Below are positions 15,687-29,735 of a stretch of 64,000 bases of DNA, piece after piece. Under the pieces are notes generated by a model. It was not told the origin of the DNA. It made no database searches and was given only the letters and a program-made list of their open reading frames with translations. A program made the translations under genes and the position numbers. Within the stretch, counting starts at the first letter, position 1; every line of letters begins with the position of its first letter. Source of the stretch: an uncultured bacterium (lineage in GTDB: Bacteria > Omnitrophota > Omnitrophia > Omnitrophales > Abzuiibacteriaceae); the NCBI GenBank assembly GCA_964387845.1, contig CAYLXA010000004.1, positions 32,001 through 96,000 on the forward strand, given 5' to 3'.

Positions 15687-17800
15687 TGTCTAAAGTTCAA
15701 AATCGTTCGCACTTTGTCATTGCTTCCCTTATTCTGATCTGCCTCGTTTTTGCGATTTACATCCAGGCGGTCCAGTTTCAATTTATCAATTACGACGACG
15801 ACATCTACGTTTCAAAAAACCCGTATGTCGCGGCCGGTTTCACGAAGGAAAGCATCCGCTGGGCATTTGAAGCGGACCTTTTGTTTGAAACGCCGGGCGT
15901 GGATTATTGGCAGCCTTTGAGTGTTCTCTCACGCATGCTGGATGTGGAGCTTTACGGATTAAATCCGGGCGGGCATCATTTCACCAATATTCTTTTCCAT
16001 GCGGCGAATACGGTTTTGCTTTTCTTATTTCTCGCAAGCGCAACTTCCGCCGTAGGCCCGAGTTTTTTTGTGGCCTGTATTTTTGCGGCGCATCCTTTGC
16101 AGGTTGATGCCGTTGCATGGGTGACGGCGCGTAAGGATTTGCTTGCGGCTTTTTTTTGTCTTTTATCGCTTTTGTCTTATCACCGGTACGCAAAACAGGC
16201 AAACCCTCACCCTAACCCTCTCCCACAAGTGGGAGAGGGAATAAAAGAGGTTTTCCCTCGCCCCGTAGGGGAGAGGGGCAGGGTGAGGGGGAGTTTAATT
16301 CTTTCGGCTGTTTGCTTTGCATTGTCTTTAATGGCGAAGCCGGCGTTTGCCGCGCTTCCGGCCGTGTTTTTGATTTTAGACCTGTGGCCTTATAATCGGC
16401 TGCAAGCCACAAGCCGCAGGCCACAAGCTGCAAGCTTCAAGCCTGAAGCCTGGAGCCTGAGGCCTGCAGCCTGGAACCATTTGATTGTCGAGAAATGGCC
16501 GTTTTTTCTGCTCGTCATTTTGTCATTCCTCACGCTTGCCAAAGGCCGTTCGATTGCCGTTGAAAGCGCCTTTTTTTATATTTCCGCGGTCAAAATCCCG
16601 GATTTTTATATGTGGTACTTGGTCAACTTTTTTTATCCCGTCAACCTGCTCATCCGGTATCCGGAAATCACGCACCACCTTTGGATGGCAGCCGATTCGA
16701 TTGTGATTTTCGGAGGCATCACGTATTTCGCGGCGCGCGCATTCAACAAATTTCCGTATCTGTTAGCAGGATGGCTTTGGTTTTTGGCGCTTCTGATTCC
16801 CTCTGTGGCGCTTGATTTTGAAAATCGCTACATGTATCTGGCGCTTGTCGGCCTGGCGGTTGCGGTGTGCTGGGGCCTCGGCGATCTTTTGGGCCGGTTC
16901 AAAATCCGGAGAGCCGTGTGGGCCGTCGCTCTATCCGCCGTCGTTATGGTTTTGTCGGTTTTATCGTGGATTTCGGCCAGTGTTTATTCCGACAGCATCC
17001 GGCTCTTCGGTGATGTTCTGCGGATTAACCCGAACAATCCGCGCGCAATCAACAATTACGCGACTGCGCTTGCCGAAATGGGCCGCCTGGACGATGCTGT
17101 CAATGAATACACAAAAGCGATTTGGATTTGGCCCGATTTTTCGGAGGCGCACAACAACCTGGGTGTCGCGCTCATGCGGCAGGGAAAAGACAAAGTGGCT
17201 TATACGCATCTCAGGGCGGCTCTCGATATCAAACCCGATTACGACAAATCGCTCAACAACATGGCGATCTTGATGCGCCGCATGGGCGATATCGAAGGCT
17301 CGATTCATTACGCAATGCGCTCAGTCCAGCTTTCACCCGAATTATTGGAAGGCCGCTTTAATTTGGCCGTGGCACTCACGGATGCGGGCGCTTACGACGA
17401 TGCGATCCGTCATCTTGAATTTCTTCTCTCCATTGATCCGCTGGATACCGAGGCGCTTTCGGCGCTGGGATTTACCTACGACAAAAAAGGTGATTACGAA
17501 AAAGCGCTTCACTATCAGCGGGAAGCCATCCGGCTGAGGCCTTATTTTGAGGAGGCCTATAATAATCTCGGCAATGTTTATGCGCACATGGGATTAATTG
17601 AAGACGCGATGCGGGAATACCGGCGCGCGCTCGCGCTTGATCCCGCTTATCCGGAAGCGCACAACAATTTGGCCGTGCTTTTGGCCGGCCTCGGCCGTCA
17701 GGAGGAAGCCATCCTGCATTTCAATGAAGCTCTGCGCGTAAGTCCCGAATACGCCGCCGCCAGGCACAATCTGCGCCTCGCGCTTTCCCGCGATCAGTAA
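15686..17800 (+). CDS. TMTC/PMT_2-like multi-pass membrane protein with a C-terminal TPR repeat domain (DUF1736-type).
   Basis: N-terminal TM helices with an INYDDDIYVSKNP motif. C-terminal TPR units (AHNNLGVAL ... YNNLGNVY ...). Contains in-frame REP-like palindromes (16204-16289) and a heptad array (16400-16473). Confidence 0.75.
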   Translation: MSKVQNRSHFVIASLILICLVFAIYIQAVQFQFINYDDDIYVSKNPYVAAGFTKESIRWAFEADLLFETPGVDYWQPLSVLSRMLDVELYGLNPGGHHFTNILFHAANTVLLFLFLASATSAVGPSFFVACIFAAHPLQVDAVAWVTARKDLLAAFFCLLSLLSYHRYAKQANPHPNPLPQVGEGIKEVFPRPVGERGRVRGSLILSAVCFALSLMAKPAFAALPAVFLILDLWPYNRLQATSRRPQAASFKPEAWSLRPAAWNHLIVEKWPFFLLVILSFLTLAKGRSIAVESAFFYISAVKIPDFYMWYLVNFFYPVNLLIRYPEITHHLWMAADSIVIFGGITYFAARAFNKFPYLLAGWLWFLALLIPSVALDFENRYMYLALVGLAVAVCWGLGDLLGRFKIRRAVWAVALSAVVMVLSVLSWISASVYSDSIRLFGDVLRINPNNPRAINNYATALAEMGRLDDAVNEYTKAIWIWPDFSEAHNNLGVALMRQGKDKVAYTHLRAALDIKPDYDKSLNNMAILMRRMGDIEGSIHYAMRSVQLSPELLEGRFNLAVALTDAGAYDDAIRHLEFLLSIDPLDTEALSALGFTYDKKGDYEKALHYQREAIRLRPYFEEAYNNLGNVYAHMGLIEDAMREYRRALALDPAYPEAHNNLAVLLAGLGRQEEAILHFNEALRVSPEYAAARHNLRLALSRDQ
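16204..16289. repeat. Two nested REP-like GC palindromes, in-frame inside the TMTC-like gene. They encode NPHPNPLPQVGEGIKEVFPRPVGERGRVRG.
   Basis: ccctcaccc taa ccctctccc acaagt gggagaggg ... ccctcgcccc gta ggggagagggg ca gggtgaggg. Confidence 0.75.
16400..16473. repeat. Degenerate heptanucleotide tandem array (NcAAGCC, about 10 units), in-frame inside the TMTC-like gene.
   Basis: Units: gcaagcc acaagcc gcaggcc acaagct gcaagct tcaagcc tgaagcc tggagcc tgaggcc tgcagcc. Confidence 0.7.
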
Positions 17801-17850
17801 TGCGCGGTCATTGCGAGCCGTGTTGTTCGGTGGAGCGGTAATCTCTATTT

Positions 17851-28305: not shown

Positions 28306-29735
28306 ACATTGAAGAATTTTGCAGATTAACAGGACTGGTCAATTTTGTTTGTTGTTTGTTATTTGCAATATTCATTTTTTCAAAGAATCCGCGAGAAAGA
28401 ACCCATCAGATTTTTGCTTTGTTTTCATTTTTTGTTGCGCTGTGGTCATTCGGCTATTTTTGTTTTCATTCTTATAATGCCGACTACGAATCCGCAGATT
28501 TTTGGATCCGGTTCTTAACACTCGGTTGCTGTCCCATTCCGGCTGTTTTTCTGCATTTCGTGGTAACGCTTTTACAATTAAATGATCGCCCTCTCTATAA
28601 ATGGCTTGTTGGCTTTGCCTATATTTTCTTTTTCTCGTTGATTTTATTCTCACCAACTTCGTTAATGGTCGCAAGTCTTGAACCTAAACATTGGTACCGT
28701 TTATGGCCTAATCCGGGTTTTTTGTGGCATTTCTATACTGCAGGATTTTTTATCACCGTATTATTTTCTCATTACCTTTTATTTAGAGCCGCGTTTCACT
28801 CTACAGGAGTTCGTCGAAAGCAACTAATGCTGGTTGCCGTGGGAACTTTGATTACGTTTTCCGGCGGTTCTACCAATTTTTTTCTTTGGTATGATATCAC
28901 AATCGCTCCCGTGTTAAATGGGTTTGGAATTCTTTACATTATTATTGTTTTCTATGCGGTTCTGAATTATCAATTTTTACAGGTGGAAGATGTCCTGGCG
29001 ATTCATAGAGATAAACTGATGCTGCTAGGGCTTATGTCATCGAGTTTGACGCATGAAATCAAAAATCCTTTGTTTCTAGTCAAAGGCTATACGGATAAAA
29101 TTACGGCGTTGGCGCAAAAGAAAAACGACACCGAAATCGCAGATGCCCTCCGCCATCTTTCAAGCCAAGTTTCCCGAATGAGCACGCTTGTTACGCGGCT
29201 TAGCGATTTCGGAAAGCCAAATCCTAACCCGGGCAAACAGGAAGATGTGGATGTGGCCCAAGCACTCGAGGATGCCTTATTTTTTGCAGAGCAAGAACTC
29301 AAGCATCACAACATTGAAGTTGTAAAGAAAATCGAGCTCAATCTGCCAAAATTGAAGGGTGATAAGAGTCAATTTGAGGAAATATTCTTGAATTTAATTA
29401 TGAATGCATTCCATTCTATGAAGAATGGCGGGAAATTAACCATTGAAGCAAAAATCCCTCACCCACGCTCCGCGTTACCCTCTCCCTCAGGGAGAGGGGA
29501 GGGTGAGGGCGGTATTGAAGTAATTATTTCCGATTCCGGAACCGGAATATCGAAAGAAAACCTCAAAAATATCTTCAAACCCTTTTACTCAACGAAAGGC
29601 AAACAAGGGACGGGCCTCGGCCTTCACATCGTCAAAACTCTCGTCGAACAGAATAGTGGCAAGATCTCAGTCGAAAGCGAAGTGGGTAAGGGAACAAGAT
29701 TTAAACTTTTATTCAACGCAGAACTCAGAGTATGA
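28302..29735 (+). CDS. Membrane sensor histidine kinase, paralog 2 of 4. Carries an in-frame REP-like insert.
   Basis: HEIKNPLF H box. Same HATPase motifs as HK1. Insert at 29456-29509. Confidence 0.8.
   Translation: MNIEEFCRLTGLVNFVCCLLFAIFIFSKNPRERTHQIFALFSFFVALWSFGYFCFHSYNADYESADFWIRFLTLGCCPIPAVFLHFVVTLLQLNDRPLYKWLVGFAYIFFFSLILFSPTSLMVASLEPKHWYRLWPNPGFLWHFYTAGFFITVLFSHYLLFRAAFHSTGVRRKQLMLVAVGTLITFSGGSTNFFLWYDITIAPVLNGFGILYIIIVFYAVLNYQFLQVEDVLAIHRDKLMLLGLMSSSLTHEIKNPLFLVKGYTDKITALAQKKNDTEIADALRHLSSQVSRMSTLVTRLSDFGKPNPNPGKQEDVDVAQALEDALFFAEQELKHHNIEVVKKIELNLPKLKGDKSQFEEIFLNLIMNAFHSMKNGGKLTIEAKIPHPRSALPSPSGRGEGEGGIEVIISDSGTGISKENLKNIFKPFYSTKGKQGTGLGLHIVKTLVEQNSGKISVESEVGKGTRFKLLFNAELRV
29456..29509. 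repeat. REP-like GC palindrome, in-frame in HK2. Encodes PHPRSALPSPSGRGEGEGG.
   Basis: ccctcaccc ... ccctctccc tca gggagagggg a gggtgaggg. Confidence 0.8.

What the first reader, a model, noticed from the sequence alone, without database searches (positions are those of the whole stretch)
16204..29509. A GC-rich REP-like palindrome family inserted in-frame into three protein-coding genes
CCCTCACCC...CCCTCTCCC-loop-GGGAGAGGG...GGGTGAGGG occurs inside the TMTC-like gene (16204-16289, two nested copies), inside HK1 (28035-28091) and inside HK2 (29456-29509). It preserves the reading frame each time. It adds Pro/Gly/Glu-rich peptides (PHP..PLP..GEGEGG) to an ATP-lid-proximal loop of the kinases and to a loop of the membrane protein. 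The paralogs HK3 and HK4 lack the insert, so the insertions postdate the duplication. Palindromic elements that survive inside ORFs are rarely documented outside Rickettsia RPEs.
Basis: seen in the sequence. Interest (0 to 1): 0.75.

Follow-up and report, generated by a model that had tools for sequence, protein, structure and literature searches.

The report
BoxC palindromes and their DUF559 endonuclease
The GC-rich palindromes lying in frame inside three genes are copies of the long-known but unexplained bacterial "BoxC / PIT / triplex-motif" repeat. The same window also holds a 0.4-kb cassette in which two such repeats flank a DUF559 (Vsr-like) endonuclease gene, an arrangement that recurs across bacterial phyla and may point to the enzyme behind these repeats.

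Summary
CCCTCACCC and CCCTCTCCC occur 8 and 11 times in the window against about 0.2 expected. The three in-ORF copies keep the reading frame.

They are insertions. HK3, HK4 and about 90 kinase homologs lack the segment, as do most TMTC-like homologs.

The element is not new as a sequence. It is the BoxC/PIT/"TMECO" intrastrand-triplex repeat of E. coli and more than 260 genomes.

They form inverted terminal repeats around a DUF559 endonuclease gene (15312-15686), directly upstream of the TMTC-like gene. This unit sits at a different site in a syntenic sister genome, with reciprocal empty sites.

In 80 DUF559 loci from many phyla, chosen by protein core only, the repeat lies upstream in 41 and downstream in 45, in fixed orientation. 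Background is 0.7% of windows.

The whole cassette also occurs in frame inside an aminoacyl-tRNA synthetase, PriA, TrpC, AroE and PrmA.

Best reading: the in-ORF palindromes are derivatives of a DUF559-encoding selfish element. They are tolerated because they often lack stop codons and fall in permissive loops. HK1 and HK2 probably share one insertion through gene conversion. The loop is not the ATP lid. The mobility mechanism is inferred, not shown.

The parts
15272..15307 (+). Left terminal repeat of the DUF559 cassette. Block order is C-G-G: CCCTCTCCC-tttttaa-GGGAGAGGG-ta-GGGTGAGGG. Its GAGGG lies 5 nt before the GTG start and could serve as a ribosome-binding site.
   Evidence: Similarity to the sister-genome copies L001 and L087 begins exactly here.
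15312..15686 (+). DUF559 (PF04480) Vsr-like PD-(D/E)XK endonuclease gene, 124 aa. All family-invariant residues are present. Its stop codon overlaps the ATG of the next gene by 1 nt.
   Evidence: Pfam E = 1e-38. PDB 3hrl E = 1e-24. The family profile also hits the homing endonuclease I-Bth0305I, 3r3p, at E = 7e-5. Invariant columns are listed.
15643..15679 (+). Right terminal repeat, block order C-C-G: CCCTCACCC-ttgat-CCCTCTCCC-aaa-GGGAGAGGG(AA). It is the reverse complement of the left repeat and overlaps the last 14 codons of the DUF559 gene.
   Evidence: Similarity to L001 ends here.
16204..16289 (+). BoxC doublet (C-C-G, 15-nt spacer, C-G-G) in frame in the TMTC-like GT-C/TPR gene 15686-17800. 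It encodes residues 173-203, NPHPNPLPQVGEGIKEVFPRPVGERGRVRGS, in a loop between two hydrophobic segments.
28035..28091 (+). BoxC palindrome (C-C-G-G sharing one hairpin) in frame in HK1 (26878-28305). It encodes about residues 386-406, VPHPLSLSLREREERSEGEGG, at the tip of the beta-hairpin between the N box and the G1 box.
29456..29509 (+). BoxC palindrome in frame in HK2 (28302-29735), encoding PHPRSALPSPSGRGEGEGG at the same loop. Its spacer layout mirrors that of HK1.
29732..32430 (+). HK3 and HK4, tandem paralogs without the insert. They serve as internal empty-site references.

Best explanation
The three in-ORF palindromes are copies of the BoxC/PIT/triplex-motif repeat. In this lineage, and apparently across bacteria, that repeat is the terminal inverted repeat of a roughly 0.4-kb selfish cassette: [C-G-G repeat]-DUF559 endonuclease gene-[C-C-G repeat].

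SHOWN:
- The cassette is a discrete unit. It sits at different sites in related genomes, with reciprocal empty sites.
- Its two ends co-vary.
- Solo repeats nearby carry the same sequence variant as the local cassette.
- Both solo repeats and whole cassettes occur in frame inside real genes.
- The copies have no stop codon in 2 to 4 of 6 frames and encode Pro/Ser/Leu/Gly/Glu/Arg-rich peptides.
- The host loops concerned are naturally length-variable.

INFERRED:
- The DUF559 protein is a Vsr-like nuclease related to the homing endonuclease I-Bth0305I. I infer that it recognises and cuts at the repeat, which forms a hairpin or triplex when single-stranded.
- This would promote copying of the cassette, or of its ends alone, into new sites. 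Alternatively, solo repeats are what is left when the gene is lost.
- Insertions that happen to be in frame in a surface loop are nearly neutral. They persist and then decay in place, as in the sister-genome TMTC ortholog.
- One insertion in the kinase array was spread to the neighbouring paralog by gene conversion.
- No function for the host needs to be assumed.
For: Identity with BoxC/TMECO: the blocks, order and spacing match Table 1 of PMC4666352.

The cassette is a unit:
- Window-to-L001 similarity is confined to 15272-15680, in an unrelated gene context.
- In syntenic L087 the cassette lies between Redoxin and YjbQ, and the YjbQ|TMTC junction is 3 nt long. In the window, Redoxin and YjbQ overlap, and the cassette lies at YjbQ|TMTC.

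Generality:
- 103 of 117 close homologs end in BoxC-encoded tails read in three different frames, so the conservation is at the DNA level.
- 80 loci were found with a core-only profile, using peptide patterns from the catalytic core. The C-G-G form lies upstream in 41 of 80 and the C-C-G form downstream in 45 of 79. The wrong orientation occurs in 5 and 6. Background is 22 of 3184 windows.
- Left-versus-right covariation is 22.2 of 27 positions within loci and 18.4 between loci; no permutation out of 5000 reached this.
- Solo copies match the local cassette variant: 22.7 against 18.2; no permutation out of 2000 reached this.
- E. coli ycjD ends in a degenerate BoxC, and TMECO no. 9 lies 168 nt downstream of it.

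In-ORF copies elsewhere:
- Solo repeats in HsdM, Acyl_transf_3 and DnaE.
- Whole cassettes in a class I aminoacyl-tRNA synthetase (Pfam tRNA-synt_1, with a weak LeuRS editing-domain hit; the KMSKS region looked ValRS-like to me, so the exact enzyme is unresolved), in PriA three times, and in PrmA, TrpC, AroE, HsdS and others.

Loops are permissive.

Gene conversion between HK1 and HK2.
Against: - No nuclease activity, DNA binding or transposition of any DUF559 protein on BoxC has been shown here or in any paper I could find.
- No target-site duplication is visible at three cassette junctions.
- The geometry does not fit a simple deletion derivative. The cassette is [CGG]-gene-[CCG], but the window's in-ORF copies are [CCG]-[CGG] or C-C-G-G.
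- Only about half of the DUF559 loci show a clean repeat at a given end under my strict pattern; the rest have variants or nothing.
- Only 64 kb of this genome was available, so copy number and the number of DUF559 genes per genome are unknown.
- Solo copies compared lie within 3 kb of a cassette, so local duplication may inflate the concordance.
Confidence: 0.6

Rival explanations
1. BoxC is the target, not the end. BoxC palindromes spread, or arise, independently of DUF559. The DUF559 gene is a free-standing homing-type endonuclease gene that inserts preferentially into existing BoxC doublets, so it ends up flanked by repeat halves. On this view the in-ORF palindromes are landing pads, not derivatives.
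For: - Composite flanks of the form [CCG][CGG]-gene-[CCG][CGG] occur in P0407, P0436 and L007, and in roughly 8-10% of loci. They look like a cassette dropped into the centre of a C-C-G/C-G-G doublet.
- L059 has [CCG]-gene-[CGG].
- The nuclease family includes a proven homing endonuclease.
Against: - The empty sites in the window and in L087 hold no BoxC at all: overlapping genes in one, a 3-nt junction in the other. Repeats and gene are therefore present or absent together.
- The three PriA insertions are at three different positions, so this is not site-specific homing.
- The model leaves the spread of BoxC itself unexplained.
Confidence: 0.2
2. It is a classical REP/REPIN system. The palindromes are mobilised in trans by a RAYT (IS200-like Y1/HUH transposase), and the DUF559 association is incidental.
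For: - The architecture resembles REP systems: a single-copy gene flanked by inverted hairpin repeats, plus dispersed singlets and doublets (papers listed).
- A Y1_Tnp gene lies 1.2 kb from the cassette in L087.
Against: - That Y1_Tnp gene is flanked by its own, different repeats (GGGGACGGTCCCC type), not by BoxC.
- No Y1 transposase homolog exists in the 64-kb window; the best tblastn E-value is 0.63.
- BoxC has no GTAG or CGTC 5' tag (sequence; the tags are described in PMC3733652, listed).
- The orientation-specific enrichment is at DUF559 genes.
Confidence: 0.03
3. The segments are ancestral loops or convergent low-complexity sequence. They are original Pro/Gly-rich loops whose DNA only happens to be palindromic.
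For: The sister-genome TMTC ortholog has a related peptide (PRPKREGRVKD against PRPVGERGRVRG) with a much weaker palindrome.
Against: - The 9-mers are 40-fold over-represented.
- The same DNA is read in three frames at DUF559 C-termini.
- Paralogs, orthologs and about 90 kinase homologs lack the segment, as do most TMTC homologs.
- The sister copy is best read as a decayed half-repeat: it still has CCCTCGCCC, as does the window copy.
Confidence: 0.02
4. The inserts are kept because they do something for the host. Examples would be a flexible linker that tunes kinase output, or an mRNA/DNA hairpin, triplex or G-quadruplex that slows translation or replication locally. This is compatible with any origin.
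For: - Inserts are retained in two paralogs and over long divergence in the TMTC gene.
- The triplex is stable in vitro, with Tm of 70-82 C (PMC4666352).
Against: - The same kinase loop in the sister genome carries three other, unrelated inserts or none, which fits a tolerant sink rather than a specific need.
- Earlier work found no promoter, terminator or in-vivo triplex signal for BoxC (PMC4666352).
- No promoter- or terminator-like site coincides with the copies, and there is no Rfam match.
Confidence: 0.1

Closest known systems
BoxC / PIT element / TMECO intrastrand-triplex motif (E. coli and more than 260 genomes; Bachellier et al. 1990s as cited in PMC4666352, Hoyne & Maher 2000/2002, Holder et al. 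2015, PMC4666352)
   Same: Same sequence family: CCCTC(T/G)CCC, a short loop, GGGAGAGGG, a 2-4 nt spacer, GGGTGAGGG, 34-37 nt in all. It occurs as singlets and as inverted doublets.
   Different: In E. coli it is described as always intergenic and not linked to mobile elements, and no protein partner was named. Here copies lie in frame in ORFs, and two copies bracket a DUF559 gene. Even E. coli TMECO no. 9 lies next to the DUF559 gene ycjD.
REP/REPIN-RAYT systems
   Same: A gene, apparently single-copy, is flanked by inverted hairpin repeats. Many dispersed singlets and doublets share the variant of the local gene. The systems are persistent.
   Different: The partner protein is a Vsr-like PD-(D/E)XK nuclease, not an HUH Y1 transposase. 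There is no GTAG/CGTC tag. The cassette itself is found at different sites, in many phyla and in some viral contigs, whereas RAYTs are described as mostly vertically inherited (abstracts).
Rickettsia palindromic elements (RPEs) and other intragenic MITEs (ERIC, QMITE1, Anabaena MITEs; review PMC10969869)
   Same: Small palindromic repeats inserted in frame into unrelated genes, adding a peptide at tolerated positions.
   Different: The sequence family and size differ: about 35-90 bp and GC-rich here, against about 150 bp for RPEs. The distribution is cross-phylum. A candidate partner enzyme exists, and that enzyme's whole gene can itself sit in frame in host genes.
EDxHD homing endonucleases (I-Bth0305I, PDB 3r3p) and Vsr mismatch endonuclease
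   Same: The nuclease fold and lineage are homologous. The DUF559 profile hits 3r3p at E = 7e-5. DUF559, Vsr and 3r3p are grouped together in PMC3424549.
   Different: The DUF559 proteins here are about 110-aa stand-alone domains without NUMOD/HTH DNA-binding modules. They are not inside introns or inteins. Insertion sites are not conserved. No activity is known.
Inteins and intron-borne homing endonuclease genes in essential genes
   Same: An endonuclease ORF interrupts conserved housekeeping genes (an aminoacyl-tRNA synthetase, PriA, DnaE region, TrpC, AroE) in frame.
   Different: No Hint/intein or ribozyme domain was detected; Pfam shows only DUF559 between the host halves. The flanks are BoxC-encoded linkers. 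Removal at the RNA or protein level is neither indicated nor excluded.

Membership tests
BoxC / PIT / TMECO repeat | Three 9-nt blocks in the order CCCTC(T/G)CCC - loop of 3-7 nt - GGGAGAGGG - spacer of 2-4 nt - GGGTGAGGG, or the reverse complement; 34-37 nt in all | tested here: met
   Window 15272-15307 and 15643-15677, and both halves of 16204-16289, 28035-28091 and 29456-29509, match Table 1 of PMC4666352 block for block. HK1 and HK2 each have one longer (13-nt) spacer, a variant also seen in other genomes.
BoxC / PIT / TMECO repeat | Multi-copy, far above chance, as singlets and inverted doublets | tested here: met
   8 and 11 block hits against 0.2 expected within 64 kb. A doublet occurs in the TMTC gene. 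The genome-wide copy number could not be tested.
BoxC / PIT / TMECO repeat | Intergenic location (a descriptive trait reported for E. coli K-12) | tested here: not met
   Three of the five window loci are inside ORFs. Other genomes also have in-ORF copies. This trait describes E. coli and is not what defines the sequence family.
REP/REPIN-RAYT | Association with a RAYT (Y1/HUH transposase) gene flanked by the same repeat | tested here: not met
   There is no Y1 homolog in the window. The Y1_Tnp gene in L087 has different flanking repeats.
REP/REPIN-RAYT | Conserved GTAG or CGTC tetranucleotide at the 5' end of the palindrome | tested here: not met
   Copies start with CCCTC... and have no such tag.
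MITE (deletion derivative of an autonomous element) | Terminal inverted repeats identical to those of a coding partner element | tested here: met
   The same blocks occur in the cassette ends and in solo copies. Variant concordance holds across genomes.
MITE (deletion derivative of an autonomous element) | Ends in the same relative order as in the partner (left end then right end), plus a target-site duplication | tested here: not met
   The window's in-ORF copies are ordered right-end then left-end, C-C-G then C-G-G. No duplication is seen at the cassette junctions. E. coli doublets do have the partner's order.
DUF559 / Vsr-like PD-(D/E)XK nuclease (protein 15312-15686) | Significant match to PF04480 over its full length, with the family-invariant acidic and histidine residues | tested here: met
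   E = 1e-38, profile positions 4-108 of 109. Invariant D41, E52, D54 and H58 are present. PDB 3hrl E = 1e-24.
EDxHD homing endonucleases | Homologous catalytic domain | tested here: met
   The profile of 30 core sequences hits 3r3p (I-Bth0305I) at E = 7e-5.
EDxHD homing endonucleases | Residence in a self-splicing intron or intein, and homing to one conserved target site | tested here: not met
   Only DUF559 was detected between the host halves. The three PriA insertions are at three different sites.
EDxHD homing endonucleases | Sequence-specific DNA cleavage activity | not testable with these tools
   Needs biochemistry.
Rickettsia palindromic elements | Membership of one of the defined RPE sequence families (about 100-150 bp, Rickettsia) | not tested
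   No RPE consensus was available to align. Size and composition differ on inspection. The only shared trait is in-frame intragenic insertion.

The most novel reading that the evidence does not exclude
BoxC/PIT/triplex-motif repeats have been known since the 1990s and were never explained. On this reading they are the ends and remnants of a previously unrecognised, cross-phylum class of very small (about 0.4 kb) selfish elements encoding a Vsr-like DUF559 endonuclease. Their terminal repeats are often free of stop codons and encode flexible linkers. As a result, both the mini-copies and the complete endonuclease gene can live in frame inside genes, including essential ones (an aminoacyl-tRNA synthetase, PriA, DnaE, TrpC, AroE), without any intron or intein.
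Probability: 0.4. Interest if true: 0.85.

Novelty: new variant of a known kind. Interest (0 to 1): 0.7.

Why it matters
BoxC/PIT/TM repeats are abundant in E. coli, cyanobacteria, Neisseria, Pseudomonas and hundreds of other genomes. They have been studied for structure (triplex, G-quadruplex) and for genome instability, without a known origin or mobilising enzyme.

DUF559 is a family of about 23,000 50%-identity clusters in the library searched, and its function is unknown.

A robust, orientation-specific link between the two gives each a testable role:
- a nuclease with a candidate substrate;
- a repeat with a candidate enzyme.

It would also add a non-HUH, non-DDE partner to the small-repeat/enzyme systems of bacteria. 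Further, it documents a route by which proteins gain loop segments, and even a whole inserted domain.

For annotation, it explains the many "PSPxPLPxGEG"-type tails and spurious fusions on DUF559 and neighbouring proteins.

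Tried and rejected
- RAYT as mobiliser: rejected.
- Site-specific homing: three PriA insertions were aligned and lie at three different positions.
- "Solo-LTR" idea, that in-ORF palindromes are what remains after recombination between composite [CCG][CGG] flanks: composite flanks exist, but only in about 8-10% of loci. The usual cassette is [CGG]-gene-[CCG], so this cannot be the general route.
- Campbell-type or staggered-cut models: worked through by hand against the junction sequences. None reproduces both geometries.
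- Metagenome scan for closer TMTC orthologs: returned only the sister contig already in hand.
- E. coli as a presence/absence test: ycjD is missing from 38% of genomes, but there the whole fabI|sapF interval holds the eefRABCD operon, so no clean empty site exists.
- The BoxC-looking insert in the distant TMTC homolog P0170 is too degenerate at the DNA level to count.
- Rfam: no family.
- Promoter and terminator scan: nothing at the repeats.
- Literature: nine searches found no paper connecting DUF559/YcjD with BoxC/PIT/TM. The library lacks most subscription journals, so prior description cannot be excluded.
- Viral contigs: only 25 relatives were found. Three of the 8 closest carry the full unit, so phages are at most occasional carriers.

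Full report
**1. The observation**

The two 9-mers that build them are about 40-fold over-represented in the window. CCCTCACCC occurs 8 times against 0.17 expected, and CCCTCTCCC 11 times against 0.26; none of 100 shuffles reached these counts.

Each element is an outer arm pair, CCCTCACCC...GGGTGAGGG, enclosing one hairpin (HK1, HK2) or two hairpins (TMTC-like gene) of the form CCCTCTCCC-loop-GGGAGAGGG. As single-stranded DNA they fold at -21 to -31 kcal/mol, with z-scores of -5 to -6.7.

The three host ORFs run through them and keep their downstream domains:
- 15686-17800: a GT-C/TPR "TMTC-like" protein.
- 26878-28305 and 28302-29735: two HisKA_7TM histidine kinases.

**2. Insertions, not ancestral loops**

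HK3 and HK4 lack 13-14 residues at this point. In about 90 kinase homologs the distance from the N box to the G1 box is mostly 23-25 residues. It is 40 in HK1 and HK2, and the closest relatives (47-60% identity) have 20-25.

A syntenic contig of a sister genome (L087, JGI Ga0268299_1000829) gives further evidence:
- The ortholog of HK2 has no insert.
- The ortholog of HK1 has a different insert at the same loop.
- Two other paralogs carry a third type of insert at that loop. A fifth (HKc) has a roughly 50-residue insert just after the N box.

This beta-hairpin turn is therefore a sink for unrelated small insertions.

An AlphaFold model of the HK1 catalytic part has mean pLDDT 86.6. It places the insert, with pLDDT about 71, at the tip of the hairpin between strands 141-150 and 170-177 of the fragment. 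This lies before the G1 box. The ATP lid lies between G1 and G2, so "ATP-lid-proximal" is not right.

In the TMTC-like family, most of 60 homologs have nothing at this loop, and several have other insertions of variable length. The 55%-identical sister ortholog keeps a decayed half-copy at the same position: CCCTCGCCC followed by degenerate G-blocks. The TMTC insertion is therefore old and is eroding in place.

**3. HK1 and HK2**

Downstream of the insert their DNA is 84% identical; upstream it is 66%. Other paralog pairs are 65-72% identical downstream.

Their C-terminal parts are 85% identical to each other but only 73-77% to their own orthologs. This is the signature of gene conversion between tandem paralogs. 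A single insertion that was then copied is the more economical reading.

One point remains odd. The two inserts have mirrored spacer layouts: 5 and 13 nt in HK1, 13 and 2 nt in HK2.

**4. What the repeat is**

A literature search with the block sequences led to Holder et al. 2015 (PMC4666352). Their "TMECO" motif was earlier called BoxC and PIT. It reads CCCTC(T/G)CCC-loop-GGGAGAGGG-TTA/CCG-GGGTGAGGG and is the same unit.

That paper reports the following:
- 23 copies in E. coli K-12, and presence in more than 260 genomes.
- Always intergenic in K-12.
- Not associated with transposons, phages or plasmids.
- No promoter or terminator activity.
- Higher local genome variability.
- No protein partner is mentioned.

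A second paper treats the same sequence as a G-quadruplex/hairpin switch. As a sequence family, then, the finding is already known.

**5.

Two more copies lie at 15272-15307 (block order C-G-G) and 15643-15677 (block order C-C-G). They are reverse complements of each other. They bracket a 124-codon ORF, 15312-15686, that matches DUF559 (PF04480) at E = 1e-38.

Features of the protein and its setting:
- Its nearest solved structure is 3hrl.
- A profile of 30 core sequences also hits the catalytic domain of the homing endonuclease I-Bth0305I (3r3p) at E = 7e-5.
- This agrees with the published grouping of Vsr, DUF559 and 3r3p.
- The left repeat ends in GAGGG, 5 nt before the start codon.
- The stop codon overlaps the ATG of the TMTC-like gene.

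**6. The cassette is a discrete, movable unit**

A 78%-identical homolog (L001) lies in a completely different gene context. Similarity to the window starts and stops exactly at the outer edges of the two repeats.

In the syntenic L087, a third copy lies between the Redoxin and YjbQ genes, while the YjbQ|TMTC junction is only 3 nt long. In the window, the Redoxin and YjbQ genes overlap, and the cassette lies at YjbQ|TMTC. These are reciprocal filled and empty sites within one conserved gene block. No target-site duplication is evident.

**7. Generality**

Among the 117 closest homologs, 103 end in peptides such as PHPxPLPxGEG, PSPxPSPxGRG or LTLxLSLxGRG. These are the same DNA read in three frames, so the conservation is at the DNA level.

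To avoid circularity, I scanned one genome per species with a profile of the core domain only. The search patterns came from the catalytic core. The 80 best loci span many groups: Proteobacteria, Nitrospirota, Chloroflexota, Planctomycetota, Omnitrophota, Melainabacteria, Firmicutes, Bacteroidota, Elusimicrobiota and others.

Results:

| Measure | Value |
|---|---|
| C-G-G unit within 110 nt upstream | 41 of 80 |
| C-C-G unit within 130 nt downstream | 45 of 79 |
| Opposite orientation, upstream and downstream | 5 and 6 |
| Either unit in background 120-nt windows of the same loci | 22 of 3184 (0.7%) |
| Left versus right end, matching positions of 27, within locus / between loci | 22.2 / 18.4 (0 of 5000 permutations reached this) |
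| Solo copy versus local cassette variant, within locus / between loci | 22.7 / 18.2 (0 of 2000 permutations reached this) |

Many other loci carry co-varying variants, for example CCTTCTCCC/GGGAGAAGG/GGATGAGGG or CCCTCCCCC/GGGGGAGGG/GGGTGGGGG.

In E. coli K-12, the DUF559 gene ycjD ends in a degenerate BoxC, and TMECO no. 9 of Holder et al. lies 168 nt downstream of it. The five E. coli BoxC doublets have the order C-G-G, spacer, C-C-G. This is the order of the cassette without its gene (my inference from their Table 1).

The DUF559 family has 22,797 50%-identity representatives at E <= 1e-3.

**8. In-ORF copies are not peculiar to this window**

Solo repeats lie inside three genes, each with Pfam matches on both sides of the insert:
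- an HsdM methylase (Nitrospira sp. NFB02);
- a membrane acyltransferase (Gallionella);
- DnaE (Thiobacillus).

More striking, the complete cassette occurs in frame inside host genes:
- a class I aminoacyl-tRNA synthetase of a Rickettsiales single-cell genome, which also holds a solo repeat of the same rare variant. Pfam gives tRNA-synt_1 and a weak LeuRS editing-domain hit, while the KMSKS region looked ValRS-like to me, so the exact enzyme is unresolved;
- PriA, three times, at three different positions;
- PrmA, a GHMP kinase and an M14 peptidase;
- TrpC, AroE, an MTS methyltransferase, HsdS and type IIG methylases.

About 7 of the 80 sampled loci are of this kind. The junctions are BoxC-encoded Pro/Ser/Gly/Glu-rich stretches. 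Only DUF559 is detected between the host halves; there is no intein or intron signature.

The window's own copies have 2 to 4 of 6 frames free of stop codons.

My sampling sees only in-frame survivors. It does not show that insertion itself is frame-aware.

**9. Explanation and its limits**

The best-supported reading is that the three palindromes are derivatives of this DUF559/BoxC element that landed, or were left, in permissive loops.

Shown:
- family identity;
- insertion status;
- the unit character and different locations of the cassette;
- the cross-phylum, oriented association;
- covariation of the ends;
- in-frame tolerance.

Inferred:
- the DUF559 nuclease acts on the repeat and drives its spread.

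Unexplained points:
- The geometry. The cassette is [CGG]-gene-[CCG]. The window's in-ORF copies are [CCG]-[CGG] or C-C-G-G, which is what a junction between two cassettes or a circle junction would look like.
- Composite flanks of the form [CCG][CGG]-gene-[CCG][CGG] exist in about 8-10% of loci. They are equally compatible with the rival view that BoxC palindromes are preferred targets.
- The absence of target duplications.
- How essential enzymes tolerate a 140-190-residue insert.

A RAYT-type mobiliser is unlikely.

**10. Novelty and score**

The repeat is known, and intragenic in-frame small repeats are a known kind of event. New relative to what I could read:
- in-ORF BoxC copies;
- the DUF559 partnership;
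- whole-cassette in-frame insertions.

Nine literature searches found no paper linking DUF559/YcjD to BoxC/PIT/TM. The searchable library omits most subscription journals, so prior description cannot be ruled out.

I rate the finding a new variant of a known kind, with interest 0.7. Most of that interest comes from what lies next to the reported feature, not from the three palindromes themselves.

Noticed in passing
window 15249-15259 and 17807-17817; L087 about 9527 and 12940-14430: A second small repeat family, GTCATTGCGAG/CTCGCAATGAC, lies next to the DUF559 cassette in both genomes. The HK1 ortholog in L087 carries a 'VIARRGDQRRSNL...PRNDS' insert in the same beta-hairpin loop; I did not check its DNA against this repeat, so any link between the two is a guess. 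Two other paralogs there carry a 'KPLARARGDDASHK'-type insert.
   Followed up: partly
window 17800-26486: About 8.6 kb, including a 2167-codon ORF (18413-24916), separates the TMTC-like gene from the response regulator. The stretch is absent from the syntenic sister contig L087, where the two genes are adjacent.
   Followed up: no
L087 7280-8110: A Y1_Tnp (RAYT/IS200-like) gene is flanked by its own inverted repeats of the GGGGACGGTCCCC type. This is a separate REP-like system in the sister genome. No homolog exists in the window.
   Followed up: partly
L069 2269-5478 (Rickettsiales bacterium AM-377-L16): A class I aminoacyl-tRNA synthetase ORF of 1070 codons contains a complete DUF559 cassette in frame at residues 241-346. 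It also holds a solo BoxC of the same rare variant at about residue 681. No splicing domain was detected. Pfam and the motifs do not agree on which synthetase it is (LeuRS editing-domain hit versus ValRS-like KMSKS region).
   Followed up: partly
L042, L080, P0373: Three independent in-frame insertions of the whole cassette occur in PriA, at three different positions. PriA looks over-represented among hosts, but the sample is small.
   Followed up: partly
L005 (E. coli K-12 1349500-1352500); L088: ycjD plus BoxC occupy the fabI|sapF interval in 3378 of 5426 E. coli genomes. The other genomes carry the eefRABCD efflux operon there. PMC12817139 infers at least two independent losses of eef. A partial duplicate of the ycjD 3' end lies between ycjD and the BoxC.
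   Followed up: partly
L025 3556-4319: Six BoxC-like units at a period of about 145 nt lie downstream of a DUF559 gene in a Gammaproteobacteria MAG. Similar partial tandem duplications of the gene's 3' end plus repeat occur in L085 and L026.
   Followed up: no
window 28092-28305 vs 29510-29735: There is a gene-conversion tract between the 3' ends of HK1 and HK2: 84% DNA identity against 66% upstream. It starts at or near the BoxC insert.
   Followed up: yes
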